Positions 4,590-59,100 of a stretch of DNA of 64,000 nucleotides are shown here, piece after piece. The DNA is from Holosporales bacterium. GTDB taxonomy: Bacteria > Pseudomonadota > Alphaproteobacteria > Holosporales > Holosporaceae. The DNA lies in NCBI GenBank assembly GCA_044378415.1, contig JBILXO010000001.1, positions 11,130-75,129 on the forward strand, given 5' to 3'. Under the pieces are notes generated by a model. That model saw nothing but the letters and a program-made list of their open reading frames with translations. It had not been told where the DNA came from and made no database searches. Each line of letters begins with the position of its first letter. The stretch's first letter is position 1. The position numbers were made by a program, and so were the translations under genes.

Positions 4590-5147
4590 TTAGGGCACCT
4601 CTTCTTCCGATCCTGGAAATAAGATCCAATGCATTTCATTGTATTTGGAATCTAATTTTGATTCTAGTTCTTCACAATATATCCCTGATAAATATTTAGC
4701 CATATTTATTTCTTGTTTAAAAATGAATTCTTTTTCAATTAAGGTTTTTTTGATATTGCAGCAAGGTGAAATATTCCTTATATCTATGTATTCCAACAAA
4801 GCTTTATGCCGCAATACGTTGACAGCAGTGCCCCTAGCCCACTTTGGGATTGTTGATTTTTTTAAAAAGTCTTTTATTTTTTCACAGAATTCCTTGACCT
4901 CTAGATTGGATTCAAAATCATGAAAATTATTGTATTTTTTTGAAATTTTTAAAGTTAATTTATCCAAAATTTTTGAATTGGAAGATGTAAGTTTTCCATA
5001 TTGTAAATAAGATTCATTTTTATTTTTTGATTGAACCAATTTGGATGATTGATCTAACCCGTTAATATTTTCCACAGGCCATACATGACATGGCCTTATG
5101 CACAAGATCTGAACCAATATCCACAGGATTTTTTTCATTTTCACCAT
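4590..5147 (-). CDS. Secreted hypothetical protein
   Basis: 185-aa ORF, AT-rich and K/N/I-rich, with a hydrophobic N-terminus (MVKMKKILWILVQILCI). I recognise no family. Confidence 0.5.
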   Translation of the reverse strand: MVKMKKILWILVQILCIRPCHVWPVENINGLDQSSKLVQSKNKNESYLQYGKLTSSNSKILDKLTLKISKKYNNFHDFESNLEVKEFCEKIKDFLKKSTIPKWARGTAVNVLRHKALLEYIDIRNISPCCNIKKTLIEKEFIFKQEINMAKYLSGIYCEELESKLDSKYNEMHWILFPGSEEEVP

Positions 5148-8644: not shown

Positions 8645-10336
8645 ATGGCAGCAAAAGATATTCGTTTTAAGGATTCTCAGGGCAGCTTTTTGCGCGGAAT
8701 AAACATTCTGGCCGATGCCGTCAAATCGACATTGGGACCCTGTGGCCGCAATGTCATTTTTGAAAAATCCTTTGGCGCCCCTCGGGTAACTAAAGATGGC
8801 GTGACAGTGGCCAAAGAAATTGAGTTATCAGATCGTTTTGAAAATATGGGTGCCCAAATGGTGCGTGAAGTTGCCTCTAAAACAGCAGATTCTGCTGGTG
8901 ATGGGACGACTACGGCCACTGTTTTGGCCCAAGCGTTGATCCTAGAAGGGGTCAAGGGGGTAGGTTCAGGCATGAATCGTATGGAAATCAAGCGCGGTAT
9001 GGATAAAGCCATCGAGCTGCTGATCGAACAATTGCACAAAAATAGTGTGACGATTAAGGGCAATGCTCATAAAATTTCTCAAGTTGCCACCATTTCAGCC
9101 AACAGCGATCCAGAAATTGGCTCTATTGTTGCCGAAGCCATGCAACGTGTTGGGGATGAGGGCGTTATTACGGTTGAAGAGGCCAAGTCATTGACCACTG
9201 AATTGGATGTGGTCGAAGGCATGCAGTTTGATCGTGGGTACATTTCCTCTTATTTCTGCACCAATTCTGAAAAAATGATTTGTGAGCTGGAAAATCCATA
9301 CATCTTGTTGTGTGATAAAAAAATCAGCTCTTTGCAAACCATTTCTGCTATTTTAGAAGAATTGGTTCGCAAGGGTGCGTCTTGTTTGCTGATCGCAGAA
9401 GATATTGAGGGCGAGGCTTTGGCCACATTGATCATCAATAAAATTCGCATTGGCTTAAAAGTCGTTGCTGTAAAGGCACCTGGATTCGGTGATCGTCGCA
9501 AGGCTATTTTAGAGGACATCGCCGTATTAACAGGCGGTCGCGTGATTTCTGAAGAAGTTGGGATGACCTTAGAAAAAGTGCAACTTACGGATTTGGGTCG
9601 GGCAAAACGCATTGTCATCGATCGCGACAGCACCACCATTGTTGAAGGTGGTATGGGCAACAGCAAGGATGCCATTGCCGGCCGATGCACCTTGATTCGT
9701 CGCCAGATTGAAGACACAACATCTGATTATGATCGTGAAAAATTGCAAGAACGATTGGCCAAATTGGTTGGCGGTGTAGCCGTTATCCGGGTTGGTGGGG
9801 CCACAGAAGCCGAAGTGAAAGAGAAAAAAGATCGCGTGGATGATGCGGCTCATGCAACACGTGCAGCTGTGGAAGAAGGTATCGTTGCAGGCGGTGGTGT
9901 GGCCTTGTTGTATGCTGGCAAAGCGCTGAGTGCCTATATTGCCGATATCACCAAGCCTCAAGCACAAGAGCATACTGCCTTTTCAAACGACTACACCTTT
10001 GGAATGAAGTGCGTCCTAAAAGCTCTGCAAGCCCCTTGTTGCCAAATTGCTGAAAATGCAGGCAAAGAAGGCGCCGTTATTGTTCAAAAATTATTGGAAC
10101 AAAATGCCATGAATTATGGCTATGATGCCTACAGAGATGTCTATGGCGATATGGTGGAAATGGGCGTGATTGATCCGAAAAAAGTCGTGCGTTTGGCCCT
10201 GCAGAATGCAGGATCTATTGCAGGATTGTTTATCACTACAGAAGTCATGATCAGTGAAAAGCCCGCCAAAGAATCCTCAGCCCCACATGGCGGTATGGGT
10301 GGCGGTATGGGCGGTATGGGTGGTATGGACTTCTAG
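8645..10336 (+). CDS. groEL: Chaperonin GroEL
   Basis: 563 aa with [32 protein letters not shown] and a C-terminal [13 protein letters not shown] tail. There is an apparent ~15-aa insertion near [15 protein letters not shown]. Confidence 0.97.
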
Positions 10337-13714: not shown

Positions 13715-14179
13715 TCAATCCTGGTAAGCCGAATCCTCATCATCATCACCCTCGTCATCCTCCACATCCTCATCATCATCGAAATAGGCATTCTTTGGCA
13801 GAAGCAGTGGTTTTGTTTCTTCAGATGCCGTTGTCTGTTTTGTTTTTTCAGATGCAATTGTCTGCTTTGTTTTTTCAGATGCAATTGGCTTTTTAATGGG
13901 TGTCACGTTATTCCCATATTTTTCATCCTCATCATCATCCTCTACATCTCCATCATCATCCAAATGGGCACCTTTTTGTATCAGCAGCAGTGGTTTTGTT
14001 TTTTCAGATGCCGTTGTCTGTTTTGTTTCTCTAGATGCAGTTGTCTGTTTTGTTTCTCCAGATGCCGTTGGCTTTTTAATGGGCGAAACATTGGGCCCGC
14101 GGGCATCATCCTCGTCCTCACCATCCTCGTCGTCGTCGCCCTCATCTTCGTCGTCGTCGTCATCCTCCACATCTTCGTT
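13715..14179 (-). repeat. In-frame coding repeats forming the PBP1A tail
   Basis: There are two ~60-aa modules. Each consists of an acidic D/E block, then G(P/N)NV(S/T)PIKKP, then three copies of the octad ASxxTKQT, then KPLLL. A third acidic block follows them. The antisense ORFs at 13690-14284 are repeat shadows. Confidence 0.85.
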
Positions 14180-22399: not shown

Positions 22400-22458
22400 C
22401 CCCCCCCTGACGAGCCAGGGACAGATTTGTACCCATAATGATTCAATGCGAATTTACC
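22400..22458. repeat. Copy 1 of a ~58-bp direct repeat starting with a C8 tract
   Basis: CCCCCCCCTGA(C/T)GAGCCAGGGACAGATTTGT...ATAATGATT(C)AATG.G.ATTTA.CC is shared with 22646-22704. Confidence 0.8.
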
Positions 22459-22565
22459 TCATAGATTTTGAAGATCTAAACTTCAAATCCGAAACATCTC
22501 TCTTTGCCCGCTTTTTTCTCGAGAAAACCCAACATCTTTATAGCCTATAGGTCCCAAATCTCATT

Positions 22566-22623
22566 CTGCATTGTGTTGATCATGGGACCCTATCCTGTAT
22601 TGTGTTGATCAGGAAACCTATCT
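22566..22623. repeat. Tandem ~29-bp duplication
   Basis: CTGCATTGTGTTGATCATGGGACCCTATC followed directly by CTGTATTGTGTTGATCAGGAAACCTATC. Confidence 0.7.
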
Positions 22624-22645
22624 TTTGCTCATCATCCAAGAAGCA

Positions 22646-22704
22646 CCCCCCCCTGATGAGCCAGGGACAGATTTGTGTCGATAATGATTAATGGGGATTT
22701 AGCC
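22646..22704. repeat. Copy 2 of the ~58-bp C8-tract direct repeat
   Basis: See copy 1. The two copies are 246 bp apart in a 1.7-kb region with no convincing gene. Confidence 0.8.
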
Positions 22705-25785: not shown

Positions 25786-26035
25786 ATTTACCTATTTCGG
25801 AAAAGGCTTTCTGGTATTCTTTTGGACCCCCGGGATGTTTTTTCTGATAACTATTTGGTTTTTCAGCGCATTATTATTTTTATTTTATATTAAATTATTC
25901 CAATATGTTAAAAATAAAATTACATATTTTTCTGAATTCAAAATAAAATGCACTTTAATCTGCAGATATTTTGAGGATTTTTTTGAAATCAAACCTTGTA
26001 TGACAGAGTTGGGATGAATCCCCGTATGATAGAGC

Positions 26036-26767
26036 CTATCTATGTAAAACTTTGGCCAATGTGACGGCATGAATATGGTGGGCTCCGGCTTCACGCAAGG
26101 CATAAGTGCATGCATTCAAAGTAGAGCCAGTTGTAAAAACATCATCAATCAATAAAACGCTTTGACCATCCCAAGAGCGTCGCGATTCAAAAGCACCCAT
26201 GACATTTTCCCGCCTTTGTTGGGCTGAAAACCGACCTTGTGAAGGGGCCTTAAGCGGCCTAGTCAGACCCTGGAGTTTTACAGGAATGCCCGTCAGGCGA
26301 CCAATCTCTGTGGCCAAAATGGCAGCTTGATTGAACCCTCGTCCAGCCAGACGATTTTGGTGCAAAGGCACAGGAATAAGGCAATCAACAGGGTGTTGCA
26401 AAATTATGGGAACAATCCATGGCGCCAAAAGATTGGCCAAATACCGCTGACGCCCATGTTTTAATCCAAAGATAATTCGCCTAGAGACAGTGCCGTATTC
26501 CCACAATGCACGATGTCTGTTGAATAGCGGGGTTTGCAATCGACAAGAGTGACAAAGATCCCGCAGACCAAGAACACCTGGATTGCCACATAAATCACAA
26601 TAAGGCGGGGTGATAAAATGCAATTTCATCCAACATTGGGGGCAAAACCCTGGTGTATGGACGCAAGTCTGGCACCCTGGACACAGGTGCGGTAAAATAA
26701 AATCAAGCAATGCGCGCATAAGTCCTTTGGATTGGGGGAATGTGCTGTAAGTTGAGGTGAGGGCCAT
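26036..26767 (-). CDS. comF: ComF-family phosphoribosyltransferase-like protein
   Basis: Cys-rich N-terminus (CPGC..CPQC..C..C) plus the PRT motif VLLIDDVFTTGSTL. Confidence 0.75.
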   Translation of the reverse strand: MALTSTYSTFPQSKGLMRALLDFILPHLCPGCQTCVHTPGFCPQCWMKLHFITPPYCDLCGNPGVLGLRDLCHSCRLQTPLFNRHRALWEYGTVSRRIIFGLKHGRQRYLANLLAPWIVPIILQHPVDCLIPVPLHQNRLAGRGFNQAAILATEIGRLTGIPVKLQGLTRPLKAPSQGRFSAQQRRENVMGAFESRRSWDGQSVLLIDDVFTTGSTLNACTYALREAGAHHIHAVTLAKVLHR

Positions 26768-27371
26768 TTATAAAACTGTCACTGGGGCCTATAGGATAGG
26801 GATATTCCTATGAAAAAAAATCTAGATTTTTAAAAATTCCCTCTGTTTCTTGCATCTGCAAAATTTTTTTGAATGACAGTGGGATCCAGTGTACCAGGGA
26901 AAAAATCTTTACCATAGATTGCAGTCTAAATGACCCAGAATTCTGGGTTTCCAGCCCTACGTATTGTGGATTTCTAGCCCTGTTTTTGCGCGCCTTAATC
27001 AAAAGAATTCAAGGGGAAAAACTTCCAGATGGGCAGCTATTTCGTAAAAAGCTCTAGCAAGGAAGTCGGAATTAAGGGGCTTTGGATGACTCCAGCAGTG
27101 AAGTAAGAAAAATTTTAGAGCTGGGTAAAAGCTTGGAAGATTGAAAATTTCCAGCAATGATGGAGGCAAATCCCGAAGGCTTTTTTATGTGTTGCCTGGG
27201 TGGTCGCGTTACTGGTGTGGCCGTATTGCCGGTGTGGGGCTTGGCAGGATTAAACCCAATTGGCCCTATCTGCTTACCTATTGGATTCTGGTACCAGCCC
27301 CATGGGCATTCTATCCATATCTCCACACGGCTGGTATGATCTGTGTTGTTTGCGTGCAAAGATATTGCCAG

Positions 27372-27617
27372 ATGCAGCCTCGTGAAATTTTTGTTCATGT
27401 TACGCCAGGTGCTCGCTCTGCCCGTATCGTGGTGCGCCAAGATCCTGATCGCGGAGAAATCATCGGTGTTTATGTGACGGCAAGGGCCCACAATGGAAAG
27501 GCCAATCAGGCTGTGATCAAGGCACTGGCAGAACATTTTGCCATTCCGCCTTCGTACTTTCGCATCAAGCGGGGCATTCTGTGTCGGGATAAGACTATTT
27601 TGGTGTACCAATCTTAA
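27372..27617 (+). CDS. DUF167 (YggU-like) small protein
   Basis: MQPREIFVHVTPGARSARIV...IGVYVTARAHNGKANQAVIKALAEHFAIPPSYFRIKRG fits the DUF167 pattern (v.pgak / dGkAN / G..sr.K). The longer 27141 ORF start and the antisense 211-aa ORF were not preferred. Confidence 0.6.
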   Translation: MQPREIFVHVTPGARSARIVVRQDPDRGEIIGVYVTARAHNGKANQAVIKALAEHFAIPPSYFRIKRGILCRDKTILVYQS

Positions 27618-27846
27618 GTGGACTGATTTTCCCAGCAATGTCACTGGATTCATGTTATTGAGGCGCTTTATTGGGACTAATCTTCCCAGCAATGCTCTTT
27701 TTTTCATCTTATTGGGGCGCTTTATTGCCCCAAGATTCCCAAGATTTAGATTTTTTTGGGATTTCTCCCCATTCAGGGTGAGAATTTTTTGAATTGCACT
27801 TGAATTTCACTTATTGCCCATCCAAAATGTCCTGACCTTTAGGTCC

Positions 27847-27949
27847 CTGGGTAGAAAATTTTGGATGAATTCAGTCCATCAGATTGAGCCATTTCCAGAG
27901 ACGATTGTTTTTAGAGCCATGGCATGAATGCGGCCATGACGCATGTGAT
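27847..27949. repeat. Left copy of a 103-bp direct repeat; an orphan duplicate of the bolA 3' end
   Basis: 100/103 identical to 29700-29802. Read on the minus strand it encodes HMRHGRIHAMALKTIVSGNGSI-stop, against HMRQGRIH... in the intact gene. Confidence 0.9.
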
Positions 27950-28155
27950 ATCTGGCCCGGGGTGAGTCAGCGATCCATGGAATACAGAGTCACCGGCAAG
28001 AGCAGGTATTTTTAGGGTATAGGTAGGTGAAGCTGGCAGAATCCGAATTAAATCATGGATATGCAATGCCATCGATATGCAATGCTTGGGGTGCGTATTC
28101 ACACCCCGATTGATAAAAAAAATGTAATTTTATATTATTTTTTCAGTTTTTTATT

Positions 28156-29502
28156 TTAAAAGTTTAAAAGTCTGTACAATCTTTCTTGAAGTTTTTCATG
28201 ATCTTTTGAAACTTGTTTAAGATTTTCCAATTCTTTTTTCATCCAATCTTTGTAAGAGCTTTTATCCATTTTATTCACTACACTGCTTTCTATCATTTCC
28301 GCACTTTGTTCTATATTTGGAATTACGGTATCGCAAATACTGTCGATATTTTCAATATCCTTTTTTCTCATATAGCCTTGTTTTTCAGCATTCGTTACAT
28401 CAGCTCGAATCTGTCCTACAAAATTATTTGCTGCACTTAAGTAAGAACTAATTGACTCAAAAACTCCTTGTTGCATTACATTATCAAGTAATTCAAATGT
28501 TCCTACTATTTTAAGACCCAGTATTTTATAAACTGCACCGCTGACATTAGTGATAGATTCTCTGGAAGCATCTTCTAATGTCAGAGTCCTGAAAATGGAT
28601 CTCGCATCCTCTAATACTGAAGTGAATTCACGAAATGATTTGTTGTTAGCGCTTTTGTATTCGTCATATTGCTGTTGTTGGTATTGCTGGTATTGCTGGT
28701 ATTGCTCTTGTTGCTGCTGATTTCTCTGTTGTTGTTGGTATTGTTGGTATTGCTCTTGCTGCTGTCTCTGTTGCTGATATTGATTCCACCCTGTCTGTTC
28801 TTGTTGTTGTTGCTGATTCCACCCTGGCTGTTGCTGCTGCTGTCTCTGTTGCTGATATTGATTCCACCCTGTCTGTTCTTGTTGTTGTTGCTGATTCCAC
28901 CCTGGCTGTTGCTGCTGTTGTTTCTGTTGTTGTTGCTGATTCCACCCTGGCTGTTGCTGCTGCTGTCTCTGTTGCTGATATTGATTCCACCCTGTCTGTT
29001 CTTGTTGTTGTTGCTGATTCCACCCTGGCTGTTGCTGCTGTTGTTTCTGTTGCTGCTGCTGATTGTTTTTTTCGGCATTATCTTTTGACTCTTCATCATT
29101 CCCATTCGAGTCTTTAAGTGGATTGCTTTTTTTATTTTTATCAAAATTAGACGTAAATATCTTATAGAATTTATTCATACTCTCTTCAGTAGATTCGTCA
29201 ATTGACAATTTTTTCAGTAAAGTTTTTATTTTGTCTGGATGAAATAAAAGGCCCATTGCTCCTTTTAAACTTCGACCTCTGTTCAAAGTATTGGGAAGGT
29301 CTGTTTTAAATGTTTCTATGAATTCTTCATTTGAAAAGTTTGGATTTTCTTCTGAAAATTTGCTAATTTTTTTGATTAGCTCAACATTTACATCATCTTT
29401 TTCATCGATAGTTTTGTTTTTTTTTGTAAGTTCACTCATCATGGCATCTGTATTGTTTGTCAAGCATTGTGAAAGCAATAGAATAATTATTATTTTTTTC
29501 AT
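28156..29502 (-). CDS. Secreted protein with a central Gln/aromatic-rich prion-like repeat domain
   Basis: 448-aa ORF with signal peptide MKKIIIILLLSQCLTNNTDA. Residues ~148-282 are almost pure Q, with seven (P/T)GWNQ motifs followed by QQYQQYQQQQ-type repeats. A helical-looking C-terminal domain follows. The flanks are very AT-rich. Confidence 0.8.
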   Translation of the reverse strand: MKKIIIILLLSQCLTNNTDAMMSELTKKNKTIDEKDDVNVELIKKISKFSEENPNFSNEEFIETFKTDLPNTLNRGRSLKGAMGLLFHPDKIKTLLKKLSIDESTEESMNKFYKIFTSNFDKNKKSNPLKDSNGNDEESKDNAEKNNQQQQQKQQQQQPGWNQQQQQEQTGWNQYQQQRQQQQQPGWNQQQQQKQQQQQPGWNQQQQQEQTGWNQYQQQRQQQQQPGWNQQQQQEQTGWNQYQQQRQQQEQYQQYQQQQRNQQQQEQYQQYQQYQQQQYDEYKSANNKSFREFTSVLEDARSIFRTLTLEDASRESITNVSGAVYKILGLKIVGTFELLDNVMQQGVFESISSYLSAANNFVGQIRADVTNAEKQGYMRKKDIENIDSICDTVIPNIEQSAEMIESSVVNKMDKSSYKDWMKKELENLKQVSKDHEKLQERLYRLLNF

Positions 29503-29699
29503 AAATTTTCCCTATGTTGTTTGTTTTTTGCTAAAATTTTTTAACAAATTTAGCGCATCTATAATATAATAAAATGAATTAATTAAAAAAACAATATAAA
29601 ATATGTGAGATTCTTGATTGATTGTCAAGATTTTTTTGAATATCGCAATAAGTGAACGACAGTTGATTTACATCTGAATTGCCAAATGAATTTAACGTG

Positions 29700-29802
29700 C
29701 TGGGTAGAAAATTTTGGATGAATTCAGTCCATCAGATTGAGCCATTTCCAGAGACGATTGTTTTTAGGGCCATGGCATGAATACGGCCCTGACGCATGTG
29801 AT
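29700..29802. repeat. Right copy of the 103-bp direct repeat (3' end of intact bolA plus 32 nt downstream)
   Basis: See 27847-27949. Confidence 0.9.
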
Positions 29803-30391
29803 CCAAGGCAGCATAAACCATTTGATGACAGGCCATTCTGGATTTTTCAGAAAAAGCCGCACTGGCAACAGTGACCGACAAATGCTGATCGTCACCCCTG
29901 GTATCCTGCACCTGAATGACCCCATTGGGAAAAGCGGCAATCAGGCGCGCCTGAATCCAATCCACATTAGACATGAGCGCGTCAGAATCGTTTTCAAAAT
30001 TGCGAAAACGGTCCGCACCCTCGGCATCAGCCAAAGTCTGGCTGCTTTTTGAGGTTCTGGCACTTGTCAAATCCCCTGCATCAGTTTCCTTCCCAGTGCC
30101 CATTGCATGGCCCCTTGGAAGAACACCAATTTCTGCAAGAACAGGGGCCTGACCATTGAAAATTTCATCCCGAAAGCCAATGACCCTATGGGTAGGGGCT
30201 GCTGCTGGGTCAGCCGTTTCTTCAGATTCATGTTCAGAAACCTCTAAAACAGGCGATGGGATTCTGCCATACGCCCTGCCTTTCCCCCCGATGGGTTCTT
30301 TTTCCACAACATCCTCCGCCACGCCACCCATTTCTTTGGTTGCACCAAGGGTGTTGCTTGGAATGGTCCTGGGATGTGAAAAATAAATCAT
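29732..30391 (-). CDS. bolA: BolA-family protein; the BolA domain is the C-terminal 80 aa and the start is uncertain
   Basis: MSNVDWIQARLIAAFPNGVIQVQDTRGDDQHLSVTV..FSEKSRMACHQMVYAAL....RIHAMALKT is a BolA signature. A canonical-size protein would start at 29974. The open frame continues to 30391 as a low-complexity extension. Confidence 0.65.
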   Translation of the reverse strand: MIYFSHPRTIPSNTLGATKEMGGVAEDVVEKEPIGGKGRAYGRIPSPVLEVSEHESEETADPAAAPTHRVIGFRDEIFNGQAPVLAEIGVLPRGHAMGTGKETDAGDLTSARTSKSSQTLADAEGADRFRNFENDSDALMSNVDWIQARLIAAFPNGVIQVQDTRGDDQHLSVTVASAAFSEKSRMACHQMVYAALDHMRQGRIHAMALKTIVSGNGSI

Positions 30392-30450
30392 TGCAATTAC
30401 TCTGGATGGCGTGGATAGAGGGTGAGACTGGGGGCAATAAATAACAGGGT

Positions 30451-31425
30451 TCAGGATTGAATAATGGGCATCAAATTTGGAAAGATCAAAACATTTTTTG
30501 GCAAATCCTTGGCATTCAATGGCATCGGTGAAAGGCTGTGGTCAGATGGCGCCACAAAGCCAGTGGAACTGAATTCGGATGAATCTGATGGCATGATGGT
30601 GTTTTGGAGATTTTTGATGTTTTGGAATCCATGGTTTTGAGGGTCTTTTTGCTCGCCTGAATGCTGTGCATCGGATCTTAAATCTAAAGATTCTCCCATT
30701 TCAGATTTTTGAGAAGGTCCTTGGGTATACACACCCAGTCGTCGGGCCAATAGAATATAGGGCACCAAAGGAGATGTTTCAGATTCTGCCGATGGATTCA
30801 TGTTCCAAATTTCCCCTGTGCGCAAATCCCGCAGCAATAAATTTTCTGGGGCCAACGGTCCAGCCACAACAAAAGGATCCTCGAAAGAACGGGCCAGTGT
30901 CAGTTGAATCTCGATTAAACTGAGGTCCCAAGCCACCAACAATCCCTGCAAGCAATGGGTTGTTCGCAGTGCCAATGCATGAATTTCATCGATCTCATCT
31001 TGATCAACCCACCCCATGGCCATCAAAAAATCATCGTTTGCATGATATTTCAAGGAAGGCGTTATGTACTCAATGAGGGGAGGATCAAATACGATGTCTT
31101 CTGGAATATGGAAATCCTTGGACAAATCTGCATTGGCGCGACTGTGAATGCGCAGTGTAAAGGGCAGAGGGTGGGTTGCCTGCATCAAGGATTCACGCAT
31201 ATTGCGTGTGCCCAAAAAATGGTTTGGGATATTGAGCTGGGTTAATTTTGAAAAAAGAAAAGCTGAAATGCGATGAGAAAGGGCACCCTTTCCAGGAATT
31301 TCACGGGATAGGCCCGTTATGGGACAACAATGGGTATCGCTGAAAAAATGATACACTTGCCCGGGATGATCGCCTTCGTAAATGGTGTGCCCTGGGAATT
31401 GATCAATGATTTTTTTATAGGTCAA
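30451..31425 (-). CDS. SAICAR synthetase (PurC)-like protein, divergent, with a ~90-aa C-terminal extension
   Basis: Colinear with PurC by eye (IYEGDHPGQVY / IPGKGALSHRISAFLFSKLTQLNIPNHFL / LIEY), but conserved motifs are altered. No other pur genes are nearby. Confidence 0.55.
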   Translation of the reverse strand: MTYKKIIDQFPGHTIYEGDHPGQVYHFFSDTHCCPITGLSREIPGKGALSHRISAFLFSKLTQLNIPNHFLGTRNMRESLMQATHPLPFTLRIHSRANADLSKDFHIPEDIVFDPPLIEYITPSLKYHANDDFLMAMGWVDQDEIDEIHALALRTTHCLQGLLVAWDLSLIEIQLTLARSFEDPFVVAGPLAPENLLLRDLRTGEIWNMNPSAESETSPLVPYILLARRLGVYTQGPSQKSEMGESLDLRSDAQHSGEQKDPQNHGFQNIKNLQNTIMPSDSSEFSSTGFVAPSDHSLSPMPLNAKDLPKNVLIFPNLMPIIQS

Positions 31426-31784
31426 AATAATGCATGAATGAATATAGTTTCTTTAGGATAGTAAAAAAAAGGGATCAATGCAATTTATTTCCAACTTATT
31501 GATAATTTTTTTTCAGAATCCCACCCTGCAGATCTGCCATTTTTGATTCCTCATTGGAAAGACCTCGCACCTTGTTGAAAACTGAACTTTTCCTTGATTT
31601 TCAGGGGAAAAAACAACTTTCTTTTGGGTGAAAATTGTTCTGCTCAGGATATTCAATTATTTTAATCAGGACGCTTTGTTTCTGTGTTATTGCATGTTTG
31701 ACAGAAAAAACAAAAACTTTTTATTGCATCCCACATTTAAATGGTGTAAGAATGAATAGGAAATGTAAAATAAAAGGAACTGAT

Positions 31785-32294
31785 ATGAGTAGTCGTTTAT
31801 GGGAAAATAAGGACAACGTTAAAGATAGAGAGCATATTTTGGAAGCTCTTGGCCGTATTGTCGCTTCTTATGTGGCACGCAATGAGATGCAGCCATCAGA
31901 GGTTTCAGGATTTGTTCAACAGATTTTCTCAACCCTCTGCAATCTTCACCACACGCCCAATGTGCGGTCGCTTCCCCAAGCGCCTGTGGATATCGAAAAG
32001 TCCATTACAGCAGAGTATTTGGTATGTCTCGAAGATGGAAAGCGTTTAAAAATGCTCAAAAGACATTTAAGGACTTCCTATGGTTTGACACCAGAGCAAT
32101 ACCGCGAAAGATGGTCTTTGCCTATGGATTATCCTATGGTTGCCCCTAATTATGCAAAAAAGCGCAGCGCTTTGGCTAAGAACAACGGCCTGGGCACATC
32201 GCGCTCACGGGTCTACCAGCAAAATGCAGCCATGGCAACAATGGGCAAAGAATCTGAATTGGTAGAGGGGCGCTCCACTGTTGTTGGGTTCTAG
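31785..32294 (+). CDS. mucR: MucR/Ros-family transcriptional regulator
   Basis: EYLVCLEDGKRLKMLKRHLRTSYGLTPEQYRERWSLPMDYPMVAPNYAKKRSALAKNNGLG is a near-canonical Ros/MucR C-terminal domain. SD AAGGAA precedes ATG 31785. The ORF track starts at 31635. Confidence 0.8.
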   Translation: MSSRLWENKDNVKDREHILEALGRIVASYVARNEMQPSEVSGFVQQIFSTLCNLHHTPNVRSLPQAPVDIEKSITAEYLVCLEDGKRLKMLKRHLRTSYGLTPEQYRERWSLPMDYPMVAPNYAKKRSALAKNNGLGTSRSRVYQQNAAMATMGKESELVEGRSTVVGF

Positions 32295-32373
32295 TATGAG
32301 ATTTCCAGGATCCAAAAGCCTTTAAACGTGGTTTTTTATCCTGGTTTTCAATGACACTAGGGGCCAGTTTGGT

Positions 32374-32416
32374 AAGGCAATGAGAGATTTTTGATTCTTC
32401 ATTGCCTTTCTTTTAT
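32374..32416 (+). terminator. Rho-independent terminator of mucR
   Basis: Perfect 10-bp stem AAGGCAATGA / TCATTGCCTT with a 15-nt loop, followed by TCTTTTATATTT, about 80 nt after the mucR stop. Confidence 0.7.
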
Positions 32417-34226: not shown

Positions 34227-35363
34227 TTAATCTTTTTTGGATTCTTCTGGTTGTTCTAGACTTTGAATTGGCTCTAAATTTTTCATTACTTCCCGATGAT
34301 TTGCCTCGAAATTTATTATTGCTTCCCAATTTATTTTTATTTTTTTATTTATTTTAAATTTCGAAAATACATCATCTATTTGGTTGACAATTTCAGTAAA
34401 ATATTTAATTTTATTATTTAATTCATCAATTTTATCAAATATTTCAACTTTATTGACTTCTGTACAGTACTTTAAAGAAACTAGAGTATCTTTTAATCCA
34501 TACAAGTGGCTGTCGATAAAACGTTCGGATTCATTTTCCAAGAGATTAAAAGTTTTTTCAATATTTTCTCTTTGTGATTGCAATATTTCTGAACTATTTT
34601 TCATACTATTTGTAAAATCAATTGAAGATTTTTTAAATGCTTTTTCACTTTCTGATTCAATTTTAAAAGTAGATTCTCTCCATGTAAAATTGGATGGTGT
34701 CGATCTAAAATTGGCCCATATCCATCCAAAATTGGATGCAGTATTTTTAGATGCAGGCAATTCACTAATTTTAACAAAAGAATCTTCGACTGGTGCTTTT
34801 ATTTCAGATCCGTCAGTTTTCAATGAATTTTCATTAGCTACATTGGAATTAATTGATTTCCAAAGATCCTCTATAGCAGATTGCAAATCAATGATCCCTT
34901 TTACAGCCATATGATCTGCTATTTGAAAAATGTAATTTTCCTCATCATTCAATGTGCCATCTTTTGATTTAAATTTAGAAACAAAACGATCACGGATAGT
35001 TTTATCATCGAGGATGTGCAAAATATGACCAACAATGGCTATATTATTTTCGTGAGTAGATTTAACTTTATAATTAAAGGAACCATCAATAAAATAACTT
35101 TTTCCATTGATATTAAATTCAAAATCCTTTCTAGACAATAATGCATCAAGTACATTCCTTGATATATTTTTCACATAAGTAGGGTGAGGGACTTCTTTTA
35201 GAAATTCTTTAAAATCCTCTTTATTTGCCTTGGAAGAATATTTTTTATTGCGCATTACCGGCCCAGTTGGTTCTTTGTAATGTTGCGCATTAAACACAGC
35301 ATGGGTGGAATAGGATGACATTGCCAGAACGGCCATAGCGATTTTTTTATAATTTTTTATCAT
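34227..35363 (-). CDS. Secreted ORFan protein
   Basis: 378-aa ORF, AT-rich, with signal peptide MIKNYKKIAMAVLAMSSYSTHA. It is K/N/E/I-rich and I recognise no family. Confidence 0.65.
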   Translation of the reverse strand: MIKNYKKIAMAVLAMSSYSTHAVFNAQHYKEPTGPVMRNKKYSSKANKEDFKEFLKEVPHPTYVKNISRNVLDALLSRKDFEFNINGKSYFIDGSFNYKVKSTHENNIAIVGHILHILDDKTIRDRFVSKFKSKDGTLNDEENYIFQIADHMAVKGIIDLQSAIEDLWKSINSNVANENSLKTDGSEIKAPVEDSFVKISELPASKNTASNFGWIWANFRSTPSNFTWRESTFKIESESEKAFKKSSIDFTNSMKNSSEILQSQRENIEKTFNLLENESERFIDSHLYGLKDTLVSLKYCTEVNKVEIFDKIDELNNKIKYFTEIVNQIDDVFSKFKINKKIKINWEAIINFEANHREVMKNLEPIQSLEQPEESKKD

Positions 35364-35881: not shown

Positions 35882-36832
35882 CTAGAGATGGAAATGAGGC
35901 CAATCAGGGCCATAATCCACACGCGTCAAATACAGACCATGGGCTGGGGCTGTGGTGGCGCGCTGCAGCTTTTTCCCAAGGTTTCCCCTTAGGGGCAAAT
36001 CCAAAGAATCCCCTGATGATTCCAATGATTCTGCCAGCTGCAGATTTTCTCCAAGGTTTCTTGCCACAAGGCCATCCAAAGAATCGGCTGATGATGCAAT
36101 CAAAGATGTTCCCAGCTGGGGCTGATCCAAAGCACCCCAACACTGGCCCCCAGGATTCAACAACCTGACCAGATGATCGCACCCCCATTGCCCTCGTCCC
36201 AGGGCCACCAAAGCCCCCACCATGATGCGCACTTGGCGATGTAGAAAAGAACGCGCCGTGACGCGAATGACCAAAGTGTTGTCGCCCCCATCTTCCAGAG
36301 TCAAAGAATCAACTGTTTTCCAGGGAGAAGCGCTCTGACAATCGCGATGGCGAAAATAGGAAAAATCGTGGTGACCCTGCAAGTAAGCACACCCCTCTAT
36401 CATGGCTTGGCGATTCAAAGGTACAGGAACCCACCAAGCCCGCTTTTCTATCAAAGCACTGGCACTGGACCGATTCAATATTATGTACTGATAATGACGG
36501 GATAGAGCAGAAAATCGGGCATGAAAAGGGTGTGGGGCTTGGCAAACCTGTATAATTTTTATAGGAATATCCTTGAGGTAAAAATTCAGGCCTCGACGCA
36601 GGGCATCCAAAGGCCAAACACGGGATAGGTCCATGTGTGCCACTTGGCCCAAGGCATGAACCCCGCTGTCTGTACGACCTGCTGCATACAGCCTGATGTC
36701 CTCACCCACCAATGAACGGATGGCTTGCTCTAGGGTGGTTTGAACGGATGGTTTGTCTTTTTGCCATTGCCACCCTGAAAAAAAGGACCCATCATATTCC
36801 AAGATCAGCGCATATCGATTAATGGTGGACAC
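35882..36832 (-). CDS. truA: tRNA pseudouridine(38-40) synthase TruA with a repeat-derived insertion
   Basis: RYALILEYDGSFFSGWQWQ and AAGRTDSGVHALGQVAH (catalytic Asp), ending TAPAHGLYLTRVDY. The homologous N-terminus begins at GTG 36832. The ORF-track start at 37087 would add 85 non-homologous residues antisense to folC. Confidence 0.85.
   Translation of the reverse strand: MSTINRYALILEYDGSFFSGWQWQKDKPSVQTTLEQAIRSLVGEDIRLYAAGRTDSGVHALGQVAHMDLSRVWPLDALRRGLNFYLKDIPIKIIQVCQAPHPFHARFSALSRHYQYIILNRSSASALIEKRAWWVPVPLNRQAMIEGCAYLQGHHDFSYFRHRDCQSASPWKTVDSLTLEDGGDNTLVIRVTARSFLHRQVRIMVGALVALGRGQWGCDHLVRLLNPGGQCWGALDQPQLGTSLIASSADSLDGLVARNLGENLQLAESLESSGDSLDLPLRGNLGKKLQRATTAPAHGLYLTRVDYGPDWPHFHL
35962..36140 (-). 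repeat. ~75-bp in-frame tandem duplication (about 2.3 copies) inside truA
   Basis: On the plus strand, GCTGCAGCTTTTTCCCAAGGTTTC..ATCCAAAGAATCCCCTGATGAT is followed by GCTGCAGATTTTCTCCAAGGTTTC..ATCCAAAGAATCGGCTGATGAT and a partial third unit. The protein reads SSADSLDGLVARNLGENLQ / SSGDSLDLPLRGNLGKKLQ. Confidence 0.75.
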
Positions 36833-38315: not shown

Positions 38316-38555
38316 ATGGCGATGGAGATCATCCAGACCATGGGCCTGCTGGGTGCCAGCCTGGTGCTGGGGTGGTCCATTTCAGAGATATTGGCCAGGC
38401 TGTTGTTCAAAGTTTGGTCGTCTGGATCTATTTCCGAGGCTCGAATCGTGGTCCAAACCAGCGTGGTGGGCTTTTTGCTGCTGCGGTATGTCGTGTGCAA
38501 AAAACGTTTCCATTTCCTTGGATTTGGCGTTTTGGGCTGTTGGGCTTGGTCATGA
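38316..38555 (+). CDS. Small two-helix membrane protein (hypothetical)
   Basis: MAMEIIQTMGLLGASLVLGWSISEILARLLFKVWSSG...; its stop overlaps the next ATG (ATGA). Confidence 0.3.
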   Translation: MAMEIIQTMGLLGASLVLGWSISEILARLLFKVWSSGSISEARIVVQTSVVGFLLLRYVVCKKRFHFLGFGVLGCWAWS

Positions 38556-38722
38556 TTAATTTTTGGCTGCCGATGGACCTATTGGCCAGGCTGTTGTTCG
38601 AAATTTATCCCTCGGGCCCTTTTCGCCCTTCGTGGGGCATTCAAAGAGTCGTCTTTGGATCTTGTTCACCGATATTGGACTGGATCATTCACAAAGATCG
38701 TGGGGATCATTGGAGTTCATAA
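38552..38722 (+). CDS. Small hypothetical protein, partial paralog of the preceding ORF
   Basis: MINFWLPMDLLARLLFEIYPSGP... shares the LARLLF(K/E)(V/I)(W/Y)(S/P)SG motif. The DNA motif TTGGCCAGGCTGTTGTTC occurs at about 38391 and 38581. Confidence 0.3.
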   Translation: MINFWLPMDLLARLLFEIYPSGPFRPSWGIQRVVFGSCSPILDWIIHKDRGDHWSS

Positions 38723-48205: not shown

Positions 48206-48763
48206 ATGTCATCGAAACCAATACCCTTGTCTGTGCCTGCGGAAAAAGAAAATGAGCCTATGGAATCCGTGGATGATTTGCTAAGTTCCATTCGCCAACT
48301 GATGTCTCCTGAAAAATTATCAGACGATGCTGTTATCGATCTCAATCGTCCCGTTCAGCCTGATACATGGCGCCTATCTGAAAAAACATTATCCGAAAGC
48401 ACCTGCGCCTTATCCTCCTTTATCAGTGCCTTGGAAGAGCCAATCCCCGGCTCCCCGGAAAATGGCTCTGGGCATTCTTTCCAAAAAACATCTGAAACAG
48501 TGGGGAAAAATCGAGATAATGGACATGCGGAAAGTATGCGCGTGGAAGATTTGGTGGCGCAGTGCTTGCAGGCCCCCCTGGATCGATGGATTCGTGAGCA
48601 TTCAGATGTGGTTGCAGCCACGATGCGCAGTCAAGTTAATTTGCACGTTATTGATTTATTGCAACAATGGCTGGATCAACATTTGTCCGCATTGATTAAA
48701 GAATCCATTGATGGGCATTTGCAATCTTTGGTGAATATTGTTCGAAAAAACTCAAAAGAATAG
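48206..48763 (+). CDS. PopZ-like (DUF2497) pole-organizing protein homolog
   Basis: N-terminal NEPMESVDDLLSSIRQLMS (compare PopZ EPSMEEILASIRRII). The middle is P/S/E-rich. The C-terminal part reads VEDLV...LLQQWLDQHLSALIKESIDGHLQSLV (compare LKEWLDANLPSLVERLVREEIERV). SD AGGAG lies upstream of ATG 48206. Confidence 0.6.
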   Translation: MSSKPIPLSVPAEKENEPMESVDDLLSSIRQLMSPEKLSDDAVIDLNRPVQPDTWRLSEKTLSESTCALSSFISALEEPIPGSPENGSGHSFQKTSETVGKNRDNGHAESMRVEDLVAQCLQAPLDRWIREHSDVVAATMRSQVNLHVIDLLQQWLDQHLSALIKESIDGHLQSLVNIVRKNSKE

Positions 48764-48829
48764 AGTGTTCATTTTTAAAATCAGAGTGAAGAGATGGGTG
48801 GCGCCAGGCACAAAATCTTTTTAATGGTT

Positions 48830-48935
48830 ACGTTGTTGATTTATTCCAACAATGACTGGATCAATATTTGTCCGCATTGATTAAAGAATCCATTGATGGG
48901 CATTTGCAATCTTTGGTGAATATTGTTCGAAAAAA
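48830..48935 (+). pseudogene. Decayed duplicate of the last ~106 nt of the popZ-like gene
   Basis: About 96% identical to 48645-48750, offset by 185 nt, and it contains an in-frame TGA (CAACAATGACTGG against CAACAATGGCTGG). Confidence 0.85.
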
Positions 48936-49592
48936 TGGCCAGTTCTAATACAAGAAATGGGACCAAAAAAGACCGGTATCTTGGATTTTAAAGTGGATTC
49001 AGGGTGAAGGGGGGGGTGGGCTTGATACTCCGTGAAAACTTTTTCCAATCAGAACCTTGTCATTGCACCCTGTGTCCCCACCGGATTCATTCCGTATCTC
49101 TGCCAGAAAGCTGCTTTTGCGAACACATTCATTCATCTTGGGGTGCACCCAGTGACAAAATGTCGCGACACCTGTGTTTTTAATAACATATCTGAACTTT
49201 CTGTGAAAAATGGCCTTATGCCATGATTTTACAATCTGCTTTCACCAACTTTTATAAAGATCCAACTGCAAGTACCCGGCATTTTTTGGTGTAAATAAAT
49301 AGACCACAATGGATCCAAAAATTTCCCCTAGGGGTAATTTTCAATACAGTCCACATGTATTAATATTTATTTTCACTATTTCAAATAATTTCCAAAAAAA
49401 TTAATATATTTCCAATCTATTTAATTTGTAAATTATATTTTTTGTTTATATACCGGTACAATGAAATAAAATAATTAAAAGAAATAGGCCTGTGCTTGCC
49501 CAATTTTTTCCAAGGCCATTAGGGCGCAGTGAGGGTTGCGCATTTTTAATGGTTAATATATTATCAAAATTAATAAAAAATAAAAATAAAAA

Positions 49593-50030
49593 ATGAATTT
49601 ATTTGAAATAAAAAACTATTATATGCCAATAATAATGATTGGATTTTTTACGAACAGCACTGTTTGTGCAGCAGAGCATGGGCAAAGAGTCACTTGCCCA
49701 AAGCGTTGCGGCGACTTTTTTAAAAGACTCTCTTTCAGGGGAGGCGAAACAGAGCTGCCAGCCATAAATGCTGGGGCGAATCCGCAGAGGAACTCTTTAG
49801 ACAGCAGTGCATTTGATTTGGAGAGAGGCCCAAATCGCACAGAGAATCTTCCAGCCATTACCTCAGTCTATGATGCGAATGATGCAAAAAAAATGATGCT
49901 ATTTTCTAAAGCAGAACCCCAGTTTCTGGGCAGACCCAGATCGCCCAGTATCCTGGACTGCGACCTTGGTCCGGCATATTTAGGGTCAAGAACCTGGCCT
50001 AATGGCCCCCGTTTCATTGATGGGCATTGA
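49593..50030 (+). CDS. Secreted hypothetical protein, possibly the 5' part of a frameshifted gene
   Basis: 145-aa ORF behind a 350-bp extremely AT-rich leader, with a hydrophobic N-terminus (YMPIIMIGFFTNSTVCAA). Confidence 0.45.
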   Translation: MNLFEIKNYYMPIIMIGFFTNSTVCAAEHGQRVTCPKRCGDFFKRLSFRGGETELPAINAGANPQRNSLDSSAFDLERGPNRTENLPAITSVYDANDAKKMMLFSKAEPQFLGRPRSPSILDCDLGPAYLGSRTWPNGPRFIDGH

Positions 50031-50499: not shown

Positions 50500-50766
50500 C
50501 AGAAGAACAACAGGGCGGCCAGTTGTACAAGAATGGATACTTTTATTGATTGTTGAAAATTCATCAATATCAATGCAATAGATGCAAAAATCTAAAAACC
50601 GATGCGTTCAGGATGGCGTACGCGTGAAACATTCAGAAGAACAACAAAGCGGCCAGTTGTACAAGAATGGACACTTTTATTGATTGTTGAAAATTCATCA
50701 ATATCAATGCAATAGATGCAAAAATCTAAAAACCGATGCGTTCAGGATGGCGTACGCGTGAAACAT
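50500..50766. repeat. Tandem duplication, 2 x ~134 bp
   Basis: CAGAAGAACAACA(G/A)(G/A)GCGGCCAGTTGTACAAGAATGGA(T/C)ACTTTTATTGATTGTTGAAAATTCATCAATATCAATGCAATAGATGCAAAAATCTAAAAACCGATGCGTTCAGGATGGCGTACGCGTGAAACAT occurs twice, head to tail, with about 3 mismatches. Each unit holds the inverted repeat TATTGAT-N12-ATCAATA. Confidence 0.9.
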
Positions 50767-51286
50767 GCAGGCAGATTTTTGAGAAGGAATTTGGGGTATT
50801 TTTGAAAAGGACTTTGGCACGTATACCAGACATAAGTGTATGGTTGGTATGCTTTGTCAGGCTTGCAATCTGCATTGAAAAAATAGGGTGAAGAGATGTT
50901 GCCCTAGGAAAATAGTCCCTTTGCCTTATAGAATGCATTTGCTGATTGGATCCCAAAATACCATGCAGCCTGTCAATGGGGCCCATTGTATGAATTGGTG
51001 TTAGGGTATTCCAAGGGCGGGTGGGGTTTTCTATGTTATTTGTGCCCAGTCAAGAAGCAATTTGCAGCATGAAAGAGACGGATGGGTTTTGTTCATCTTG
51101 AGGCAGCTGTGTAAGGCTTTGAGAAATGGATGCAATGGGCTTGATCCCATACAGGAAAAGGGGTTCCACCGCTGCAACGATTTCAGAGCCCTAGAAGGGC
51201 GATGTTATTGGGATGGGACCCAAGTCTTACCACAACGCATCACGGCAAAAACACCAAATCCCCCAATATCGAACCCTGTGGAAACC

Positions 51287-57192: not shown

Positions 57193-57283
57193 ATTGGGGG
57201 GGGTAGACCAAAGCCCCCCCCAACAATTTCAGCCCCATCCCTGGTTTTCGCCAATAATGCCATCAATGACGCAACTGTCAGGC
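57193..57283. repeat. Left arm of a ~90-bp inverted repeat (includes a G8/C8 hairpin)
   Basis: ATTGGGGGGGGTAGACCAAAGCCCCCCCCAACAATTTCAGCCCCATCCCTGGTTTTCGCCAATAATGCCATCAATGACGCAACTGTCAGGC. The reverse complement of 59101-59187 matches it at roughly 90%. Confidence 0.85.
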
Positions 57284-57512
57284 CCATGCCATGTCATGGA
57301 ATAGAGCATCTTGTAAGAATTTTTGACGATAACTCTTGAAACCCAGATTGACCTTCTTGATGCGAGAAAAACCTGTTGAATGGCGCTCTTGATAAGATCC
57401 TAAAGTTTGACTTATTATTTTGACCACTTTTTCGCCAATAAATCTAAAAAACACTCTACTGTACCGGTGTAATGCTGTACCCTTATAAAAAATCCCTACA
57501 TGGTGGAATTCT

Positions 57513-59059: not shown

Positions 59060-59100
59060 AACCAAACCATGTGAGTTTTTTGAAAAAGCTCATGGCCTCT

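What the first reader, a model, noticed from the sequence alone, without database searches (positions are those of the whole stretch)
27847..29802. AT-rich cassette bracketed by 103-bp direct repeats that duplicate the bolA 3' end
The Q-rich gene and its promoter region (about 27950-29699, visibly far more AT-rich than its surroundings) lie between two 103-bp direct repeats that are 100/103 identical. The right copy is the true 3' end of bolA plus 32 nt of downstream DNA. The left copy is an orphan fragment still reading HMRHGRIHAMALKTIVSGNGSI-stop.

Of the three differences, two are synonymous. A 103-bp duplication is far longer than any transposase target-site duplication, and no mobility gene is present. 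This points to insertion by an unusual duplicative or recombinational mechanism. The same type of footprint is seen at the popZ-like gene.
Basis: seen in the sequence. Interest (0 to 1): 0.65.

Follow-up and report, generated by a model that had tools for sequence, protein, structure and literature searches.

The report
Strain-variable gene cassette with att-like repeats
A 1.85-kb, single-gene AT-rich cassette sits just after the bolA gene of an uncultured lake alphaproteobacterium, bracketed by two 103-nt copies of the bolA 3' end; sister strains in the same lakes lack it and keep one copy, which is the classic footprint of a circular DNA integrating into a gene's 3' end, here with no integrase left.

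Summary
Two 103-nt direct repeats (27847-27949 and 29700-29802) match at 100 of 103 positions and have sharp edges. They bracket a signal-peptide, Q-rich ORFan and its promoter. The right copy is the real bolA 3' end plus 32 nt. The left copy is an orphan C-terminal fragment.

New here: the cassette is a genuine presence/absence polymorphism. Several independent lake-metagenome assemblies carry both copies and the cassette. A strain about 0.7% divergent has zero cassette DNA and a precise empty site with a single repeat copy.

No integrase or transposase lies in the window or in about 10 kb more on each side. The cassette has no terminal inverted repeats.

The best reading is a Campbell-type single-crossover integration, giving attL/attR-like repeats as at e14 in E. 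coli icd. What remains is an integrase-less islet, like a cis-mobilizable element (CIME). The 68-nt identical block could support loss by homologous recombination.

Gain versus loss is unresolved, and so is integrase versus RecA. Interest is moderate.

The parts
27847..27949 (-). Left repeat copy (attL-like). It is an orphan bolA 3' fragment: 22 codons, the stop, and 32 nt downstream. It carries all three differences from the empty-site allele (A69, G84, A90; Q to H).
27950..28110 (.). Cassette segment with host-like composition (49% GC). It is non-coding and unique in the window, and it is absent from the empty-allele strain. It contains the hairpin GGGGTGCG-TATT-CACACCCC about 50 nt downstream of the cargo gene's stop.
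28156..29502 (-). Cargo gene encoding a 448-aa ORFan. It has an N-terminal signal peptide, a helical N-domain, a Q-rich tandem-repeat core (78-nt period) and a helical C-domain. GC is 35%. Length variants of 422 and 407 aa occur in other samples.
29503..29699 (-). AT-rich upstream region of the cargo gene. It has a sigma-70-like match, TTGACA-17-CATATT, at 29628-29600.
29700..29802 (-). Right repeat copy (attR-like). It is the functional bolA 3' end plus 32 nt downstream. It matches the empty-site allele at all three diagnostic positions.
29732..30391 (-). BolA-domain ORF, the target gene. It is 219 aa as the longest ORF. The BolA domain proper is the last 80 aa (29732-29974). One strain has a 1-nt deletion at 29975 that splits the ORF into 149 + 80 aa.
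27336..27617 (+). DUF167 (YggU) gene, convergent with bolA. It is the other border of the insertion locus. Its downstream spacer (27618-27846) is contiguous with the single repeat copy in the empty allele.

Best explanation
The 1,853-bp unit (one repeat copy plus 27950-29699) is a small integrated element. It entered the bolA-DUF167 spacer by a single reciprocal crossover between a circular DNA carrying a ~103-nt copy of the bolA 3' end and the chromosomal bolA 3' end (Campbell-type integration).

Such a crossover produces, in one step, the structure flank-copy-cargo-copy-gene. bolA stays intact and an orphan 3' fragment ends up at the far side. These are attL- and attR-like sites.

The element now has no recombinase of its own. 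It is best described as a decayed, integrase-less islet of the cis-mobilizable-element (CIME) type. Its only cargo is an AT-rich gene for a secreted, Q-rich, length-variable protein.

What is shown: the repeat anatomy; the intact target gene; the exact empty site with a single copy in a sister strain; the lack of any mobility gene; the lack of terminal inverted repeats.

What is inferred: that the incoming DNA was circular; that a tyrosine recombinase acting in trans, or lost by deletion, made the crossover rather than RecA; that the crossover lay in the 68-nt perfectly identical part (repeat positions 1-68); that the 68-nt identity allows the cassette to be lost again by homologous recombination.

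Whether the empty allele is ancestral (gain) or derived (loss) is not resolved.
For: (1) The 103-nt direct repeats have abrupt edges and span the stop codon of a housekeeping gene, which stays intact.

(2) A precise empty site exists. L008 and Logan contigs of runs X10, X11 and X13 join 27846 directly to 29700, with cassette-unique depth 0 and flank depth about 4-5. X14 likewise has flanks but no cassette-unique DNA, and X12 runs from the flank into a single R-type copy.

(3) Occupied alleles in three independent assemblies keep the same L and R sequences.

(4) The cargo is compositionally foreign (33% GC against 43%) and is an ORFan restricted to this species.

(5) Known elements behave this way. 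Tyrosine-recombinase elements integrate into the 3' ends of housekeeping protein genes with a flanking repeat that includes the gene end. CIMEs keep attL/attR after losing integration genes (PMC5704250). E. coli e14 shows a 166-nt icd/icdC duplication at 93% identity with a sharp inner edge (PMC13626634).

(6) The cassette ends have no terminal inverted repeats.

(7) The empty allele matches R, not L, at positions 69, 84 and 90. That fits a crossover, at integration or at deletion, inside the 68-nt identical block.
Against: There is no integrase, excisionase or relaxase in the cassette, the window, or about 10 kb beyond each end, roughly 80 kb in all.

The element is tiny, with a single gene. 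Its repeat (103 nt, 68 nt perfect) is longer than the 8-60 bp quoted as usual for integrative and mobilizable elements (PMC5704250).

No circular or tandem joint appears in any contig set. Contigs would miss rare forms, so this is weak.

Presence and absence track strain background perfectly in the runs examined, so nothing shows ongoing mobility.

The pattern of differences is odd for a diverged foreign copy of the gene end: 0 of 68 against 3 of 35, and all three fall in a 25-nt inverted repeat.

The same genome carries many short tandem duplications at gene 3' ends, which offers another route to a 103-nt duplication.
Confidence: 0.55

Rival explanations
1. Duplicative capture without a site-specific recombinase. 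A break with long staggered ends, or a replication template switch, duplicated 103 nt of target and trapped foreign DNA at the joint. The same process would produce this genome's many 54-246-nt tandem duplications. In effect this is a very long target duplication with a 1.75-kb filler.
For: The window holds at least seven tandem or near-tandem duplications with units of 54-246 nt, mostly at or just after gene 3' ends. They are at 27620-27727, 48645-48935, 13743-14083, 35962-36118, 22400-22701, 38389-38623 and 50500-50770. The popZ-like case has about 70 nt of unrelated DNA between its copies, a possible small-filler intermediate. No recombinase gene lies nearby. The two copies are identical over 68 nt, including 32 nt of non-coding DNA, as expected if both came from the same chromosome.
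Against: No bacterial mechanism is known that gives a 103-nt target duplication around a kilobase insert. There is no clear microhomology at the four junctions. The three differences cluster in one copy. A single Campbell crossover explains the structure with established biology. This is the only repeat-flanked indel in the roughly 37 kb compared between the two strains.
Confidence: 0.2
2. Two separate events. A simple 103-nt tandem duplication of the bolA 3' end came first, of the kind common in this genome. A foreign gene then inserted exactly at the joint between the copies, or replaced DNA between them.
For: Tandem duplications of similar length are abundant in this genome and tolerated at gene 3' ends.
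Against: The insertion would have to hit the exact joint, about 1 chance in 200 for a random site inside the 206 nt. Both copies are full length with no loss. The empty allele has one copy, not two. No strain with an adjacent 2 x 103 arrangement was seen.
Confidence: 0.07
3. RecA-only Campbell integration. A circularised fragment from another strain, carrying cargo plus 103 nt of bolA homology, entered by homologous recombination. No site-specific recombinase was ever involved. This is a sub-variant of the best explanation that differs in the enzyme.
For: A 68-nt perfect identity is enough for RecA-dependent exchange (established knowledge). No integrase is present. The differences lie outside the identical block.
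Against: It needs a prior illegitimate event to build and circularise a cargo-plus-homology molecule. The choice of a housekeeping gene's stop-codon region is what site-specific elements typically show (PMC5704250).
Confidence: 0.15
4. Assembly or binning artefact: a chimeric join, or a collapsed repeat.
For: The source is a metagenome assembly. Logan k=31 unitigs break inside the 68-nt identical block.
Against: Three independent assemblies give the same two-copy structure with copy-specific differences. All four junctions are crossed by contigs in several runs. Cassette depth equals flank depth in occupied samples and is zero in empty samples.
Confidence: 0.01

Closest known systems
Cryptic prophage e14 (and phage 21) integrated in the E. 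coli icd gene, leaving the icdC pseudogene
   Same: Both show a direct duplication of the 3' end of a housekeeping protein gene. The gene stays intact and an orphan C-terminal fragment lies at the far end. The differences between copies are few and mostly silent, and the inner boundary is sharp. Measured here for e14: 166 nt with 12 mismatches. Excision or loss gives a single chimeric copy (PMC13626634).
   Different: e14 is 15 kb and encodes intE and xisE. This cassette is 1.75 kb with one cargo gene and no recombinase. In e14 the gene-attached copy is element-derived and differences are spread along the block. Here the gene-attached copy matches the empty allele, and the differences cluster in the inner 35 nt of the orphan copy.
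[quoted passage not shown]
   Same: [quoted passage not shown] It has no integrase or transfer genes. It is present or absent among strains.
   Different: Descent from an ICE or IME, and mobilisation by a cognate integrase in trans, are not shown here. This element is far smaller than described CIMEs, and its repeat is longer than the usual 8-60 bp.
Genomic islets or islands at tRNA/tmRNA and protein-gene 3' ends (tyrosine-recombinase att sites)
   Same: The target is a gene 3' end, the target function is preserved, the cargo is compositionally foreign, and occupancy varies between strains.
   Different: No recombinase and no tRNA target. The cargo is a single gene.
Target-site duplications of DDE transposons and insertion sequences
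   Same: Direct repeats of target DNA flank an insert.
   Different: Those duplications are 2-14 bp, with terminal inverted repeats and a transposase. Here the repeat is 103 nt, with no terminal inverted repeats and no transposase.

Membership tests
Site-specific integrative element (prophage, ICE or IME with a tyrosine recombinase) | Encodes its own integrase, usually at one end of the element | tested here: not met
   No recombinase Pfam hit in the cassette, in any ORF of 120 aa or more in the 64-kb window, or among called genes about 10 kb beyond each end.
Site-specific integrative element (prophage, ICE or IME with a tyrosine recombinase) | [quoted passage not shown] | tested here: met
   The 103-nt repeats span the bolA stop codon, and the ORF is intact. 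The feature definition is from PMC5704250.
Site-specific integrative element (prophage, ICE or IME with a tyrosine recombinase) | An unoccupied attB with a single repeat copy exists in related genomes | tested here: met
   L008 and runs X10, X11 and X13 join the flank directly to a single copy and then bolA, with cassette depth 0. X12 and X14 agree.
Site-specific integrative element (prophage, ICE or IME with a tyrosine recombinase) | An excised circular form (attP joint) is detectable | tested here: inconclusive
   No 'goes back' joint linking 29699 to 27950 through one copy appears in any contig set. Only assembled contigs were available, not raw reads, so rare forms would be missed.
CIME (cis-mobilizable element) | Retains attL and attR but lacks integration and transfer genes | tested here: met
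   Both repeat copies are present and there is no mobility gene.
CIME (cis-mobilizable element) | Derived from an ICE or IME, and excisable by a related element's integrase in trans | not testable with these tools
   The rest of the genome is not available, no related element was found, and both metagenome-contig scans returned nothing.
DDE transposon or insertion sequence | Terminal inverted repeats, a short (2-14 bp) target duplication and a transposase | tested here: not met
   No terminal inverted repeats at 27950 and 29699. The duplication is 103 nt. No transposase is present.
Integron gene cassette | An attC recombination site at the cassette end and an intI/attI platform nearby | tested here: not met
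   No integrase in the roughly 80 kb examined. The flanking repeat is a copy of the bolA 3' end, not an attC-type imperfect palindrome shared with other cassettes. There are only two copies in the window.
Simple tandem duplication (replication slippage) | The copies lie head to tail, with no or minimal intervening DNA | tested here: not met
   1,750 nt of unrelated, compositionally distinct DNA separate the copies.

The most novel reading that the evidence does not exclude
This divergent alphaproteobacterial lineage may have a recombinase-independent, duplicative way of acquiring genes. The process that litters its gene 3' ends with 50-250-nt tandem duplications would occasionally trap foreign DNA at the duplication joint. 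The bolA cassette (103-nt duplication, 1.75-kb filler) and the popZ-like locus (about 110-nt duplication, about 70-nt filler) would be two products of that one mechanism. It would install AT-rich secreted-protein genes without any mobile-element machinery.
Probability: 0.15. Interest if true: 0.7.

Novelty: new variant of a known kind. Interest (0 to 1): 0.4.

Why it matters
This is a clean natural example of a single accessory gene switching between present and absent in co-occurring strains of an uncultured freshwater alphaproteobacterium. GroEL is at most 66% identical to any of the 80 best-matching genomes kept by the scan of GTDB species representatives, so the lineage is very divergent. 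Both alleles were recovered from public metagenomes.

It shows that att-like repeats can persist around a minimal, integrase-less, one-gene islet. It also shows that a 68-nt perfect repeat could make such a gene reversibly dispensable.

The cargo is a signal-peptide, Q-rich ORFan whose length varies between strains. It belongs to a set of AT-rich secreted ORFans scattered along this chromosome, at least one other of which also differs between strains. This looks like a fast-evolving surface or host-interaction repertoire.

If the minority reading is right, it would point to an undescribed route of gene acquisition.

Tried and rejected
1. Relatives in GTDB species genomes. A scan with the adjacent purC-like protein found nothing. 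A GroEL scan returned only relatives at 60-66% identity. Synteny in an outgroup could therefore not be examined, and the species is not among the GTDB representatives.

2. Two scans of metagenome contigs, one with a degenerate and one with an exact repeat pattern, both returned 0. That collection evidently lacks these samples. The population evidence came from the look-up of encoding contigs and from Logan contigs instead.

3. Homologues of the cargo protein.
- The full-length search found only the 407-aa and 422-aa variants.
- An exhaustive HMMER search with the C-terminal domain gave only weak hits to repetitive eukaryote-like proteins (P0009-P0011), which I judge spurious.
- The N-domain search returned nothing, oddly not even the species' own variants, so I treat it as uninformative.
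- Pfam and PHROGs gave no hit.

4. Structure. Single-sequence AlphaFold2 gave mean pLDDT 49 and an all-helical model. Foldseek against the PDB gave no match with E below 1.

5. Polarity from an outgroup BolA. The nearest homologue, P0004, is 48% identical and uninformative at the Q/H site, and its contig has different neighbours.

6. Dating from the L-R differences. Three were observed against 0.7-2.2 expected, depending on the neutral rate assumed, giving P from 0.04 to 0.37. This is not decisive.

7. Crossover inside the 25-nt inverted repeat at positions 67-91. Rejected, because the left copy differs from the empty allele on both sides of it.

8. Other possibilities. No Rfam family matches in or near the cassette; only two tRNAs elsewhere. 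The repeat contains no dif-like site by inspection. The AT-rich ORFans of the window show no paralogy with one another.

Full report
**The observation**

The window carries a 103-nt direct repeat at 27847-27949 (L) and 29700-29802 (R), identical at 100 of 103 positions. A pairwise alignment with 47 nt of flank on each side shows similarity starting and stopping abruptly at both edges. A 58-nt core occurs exactly twice in the 64 kb, and 100 dinucleotide-preserving shuffles gave none. It is therefore neither a chance match nor a dispersed family.

R consists of 2 nt of a codon, the last 22 codons and the stop (29732-29734) of a BolA-domain ORF on the minus strand (Pfam PF01722, E = 2e-12), plus 32 nt downstream. 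In the same frame L reads ...YHMRHGRIHAMALKTIVSGNGSI-stop, with stop codons further upstream, so it is an orphan fragment.

The three differences lie at repeat positions 69, 84 and 90. Two are synonymous and one changes Q to H.

Between the copies lie four parts:
- 161 nt of host-like, non-coding DNA (27950-28110, 49% GC) ending in a strong hairpin.
- A 448-aa ORF on the minus strand (28156-29502, 35% GC) with a signal peptide and a Q-rich tandem-repeat core.
- A short AT-rich spacer between that hairpin and the ORF's stop.
- A very AT-rich upstream region with a sigma-70-like match.

Overall 28111-29699 is 32.9% GC, against 43.3% for the window.

**It is real, and it is polymorphic**

Exact-protein look-ups recovered independent metagenome contigs from several lake samples. 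L001, L004 and L005 carry the arrangement purC-like, bolA, R, cargo, L, DUF167, with L and R each identical to the window's copies. Over 27300-30400 these contigs differ from the window only by 78-nt and 123-nt deletions inside the Q repeat and by a 1-nt deletion at 29975.

Contig L008 instead runs from the DUF167-side spacer straight into a single repeat copy and on into bolA. That could have been a chimera made through the repeat, so I checked it with Logan contigs of public lake-water runs.
- In X1, X2, X3, X5, X8 and X9 the cassette is present at about the depth of its flanks. Contigs cross all four junctions.
- In X10, X11 and X13 the flanks are present at depth about 4-5, cassette-unique DNA has depth 0, and contigs join 27846 to 29700 directly, with 68 nt ambiguous. 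X14 shows the same flanks and no cassette-unique DNA, and X12 runs from the flank into a single R-type copy.

So there is a true empty allele. The empty-allele strain differs from the window strain at about 0.7% of positions, 223 of 31,610 compared.

Its single copy carries the R-type base at all three diagnostic positions. It also has two changes of its own, at positions 18 and 29 in the 32-nt non-coding part.

In the roughly 37 kb compared between the two strains, this is the only repeat-flanked presence/absence indel.

**Context**

The window is ordinary chromosome from a very divergent alphaproteobacterium. It encodes GroEL, PepA, a class A penicillin-binding protein, RNase PH, NrdB, Tmk, UppP, ComF-like, DUF167, BolA, PurC-like, MucR, TruA, a Mur ligase, RseP, Lgt, a PopZ-like protein (DUF2497), PheS, RlmH, GpsA, a porin and MlaE. 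GroEL is only 60-66% identical to any of the 80 best-matching genomes kept by the scan of GTDB species representatives.

No ORF in the window hits an integrase, transposase or other recombinase family. Neither do the called genes about 10 kb beyond each end.

Interspersed are several AT-rich ORFans with signal peptides and no family match, at 4590-5147, 28156-29502, 34227-35363 and 58079-59059. They are not detectably related to one another.

**The cargo**

The Q-rich protein has no relatives other than 422-aa and 407-aa variants from the same species. The length differences correspond to the 78-nt repeat period.

An exhaustive HMMER search with the C-terminal domain found only weak hits to repetitive proteins, which I consider spurious. 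There is no Pfam or PHROG hit. AlphaFold2 without an alignment gives a low-confidence all-helical model with no fold match.

One freshwater metatranscriptome contig covers 28518-28721 and nothing else in 26000-32400. This is weak evidence that the gene is transcribed.

**Mechanism**

The structure flank-copy-cargo-copy-gene, with the gene intact and an orphan 3' fragment at the far side, is what one reciprocal crossover yields when a circular DNA carrying a copy of the gene end meets the chromosomal gene end.

This is how tyrosine-recombinase elements that target the 3' ends of housekeeping genes integrate. One flanking repeat includes the gene end, so the gene is not disrupted. Elements that later lose their integration genes but keep attL/attR are called CIMEs (PMC5704250).

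I measured the textbook case for comparison. In E. coli K-12, e14 is flanked by icd and the icdC pseudogene (PMC13626634). The duplication is 166 nt with 12 mismatches, and its gene-internal boundary is equally sharp.

The cassette ends have no terminal inverted repeats, and 103 nt is far outside transposase target duplications.

I therefore favour a Campbell-type integration footprint, now an integrase-less, one-gene islet.

The empty allele matches R at positions 69, 84 and 90. So the exchange that made or removed the cassette lay within the 68-nt perfectly identical block. That holds whether the empty allele is ancestral (integration there) or derived (deletion by recombination between L and R). 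I could not resolve the polarity. The nearest BolA homologue is too distant, and the count of differences is statistically indecisive.

**What does not fit neatly**

- There is no recombinase within about 80 kb.
- The element is unusually small.
- The repeat is longer than the 8-60 bp usually quoted.
- No circular joint is seen, though only contigs were available.
- Occupancy tracks strain background, so nothing shows current mobility.
- The differences are oddly distributed: 0 of 68 against 3 of 35. All three fall inside a 25-nt inverted repeat (AGGGCC-N13-GGCCCT, positions 67-91) that is intact in R and in the empty allele but broken in L.
- Both changes specific to the empty strain fall in a 15-nt near-palindrome, GGATGAATTCAGTCC, that ends just before the stop codon. 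These may be recombinase core-like sites or coincidence.

Finally, the genome is rich in tandem or near-tandem duplications of 54-246 nt at or just after gene 3' ends. It is present in both strains and encloses only about 70 nt.

This leaves room for a recombinase-independent duplicative capture, which I rate at about 0.15-0.2. A two-step model, tandem duplication followed by insertion at the joint, rates lower, and an assembly artefact is effectively excluded.

**Verdict**

Relative to known systems this is a new variant of a known kind: a minimal, integrase-less, att-bracketed single-gene islet at a protein-gene 3' end in a poorly known lineage. Interest is moderate.

Noticed in passing
window 27620-27727; 13743-14083; 22400-22701; 35962-36118; 38389-38623; 48645-48935; 50500-50770: There is an unusually high density of tandem or near-tandem duplications with units of 54-246 nt and 74-97% identity. 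Most lie at or just downstream of gene 3' ends. They include 2 x 54 nt right after the DUF167 stop, the C-terminal coding part of the class A penicillin-binding protein (PBP) gene, and 2 x 134 nt in an intergenic region.
   Followed up: partly
window 48645-48750 and 48830-48935: The 3' end of the PopZ-like (DUF2497) gene, lacking its last 13 nt, is duplicated 185 nt downstream at 96% identity. Only about 70 nt of other DNA lie between the copies. The second copy would encode an alternative C-terminus (...VRKNGQF*). The duplication is present in both strains.
   Followed up: partly
window 57200-57293 and 59091-59183: A 94-nt inverted repeat (89% identity) with a G8/C8 hairpin brackets rlmH plus the AT-rich signal-peptide ORFan at 58079-59059. 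No Rfam family matches. Both strains carry it.
   Followed up: partly
window 34227-35363: The most AT-rich ORFan in the window (378 aa, 29% GC, with a signal peptide) is replaced by unlike sequence in the empty-allele strain. Depth is about 0 across 34670-35336, and the contig continues with DNA that does not match. It is a second strain-variable secreted ORFan, and it is not flanked by repeats.
   Followed up: partly
window 28650-29100: The Q-rich core of the cargo gene is a hypervariable tandem repeat with a 78-nt period. Otherwise identical contigs differ by 78-nt and 123-nt deletions, giving proteins of 448, 422 and 407 aa.
   Followed up: yes
window 29732-30391; L001/L010: The 219-aa 'bolA' ORF is probably an 80-aa BolA (29732-29974) preceded by an unrelated upstream ORF. 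One strain has a 1-nt deletion at 29975 that separates them into 149 + 80 aa.
   Followed up: partly
window 27612-27884: In occupied-allele runs X8 and X9 no contig matches this DUF167-downstream spacer at 95% identity or more, although both neighbouring stretches are covered. This spacer, which contains the 54-nt repeats, seems to have a third haplotype.
   Followed up: no
repeat positions 67-91 (window 29766-29790) and 17-31 (29716-29730): All three L/R differences fall in a 25-nt inverted repeat (AGGGCC-N13-GGCCCT) that is intact in R and in the empty allele but broken in L. Both SNPs specific to the empty strain fall in a 15-nt near-palindrome, GGATGAATTCAGTCC, that ends just before the bolA stop codon. 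These may be recombinase core-like sites, an mRNA hairpin, or chance.
   Followed up: partly
window 8645-10336: GroEL is only 60-66% identical to any of the 80 best-matching genomes kept by the scan of GTDB species representatives. The adjacent purC-like and BolA proteins have almost no relatives among 5.8 billion proteins. The source is a deep-branching, fast-evolving alphaproteobacterium from lake water, and its many signal-peptide ORFans suggest a host-associated lifestyle.
   Followed up: partly
window 28518-28721: A freshwater metatranscriptome run (X23) has one 204-nt contig with 2 mismatches on the cargo gene and nothing on the neighbouring housekeeping genes. This hints that the cargo gene is relatively highly transcribed in situ.
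   Followed up: partly
window 49060/49061 and 49487-49571: The empty-allele strain has a 35-nt insertion at 49060. One run shows an 83-nt replacement at 49487-49571, in the intergenic region upstream of the ORF at 49593-50030.
   Followed up: no
window 31635-32294: A MucR/Ros-family regulator gene lies 1.8 kb from the cassette. MucR proteins are reported to act as H-NS-like silencers of AT-rich DNA in alphaproteobacteria (from my own knowledge, not tested here). That could be relevant to control of the AT-rich ORFans.
   Followed up: no
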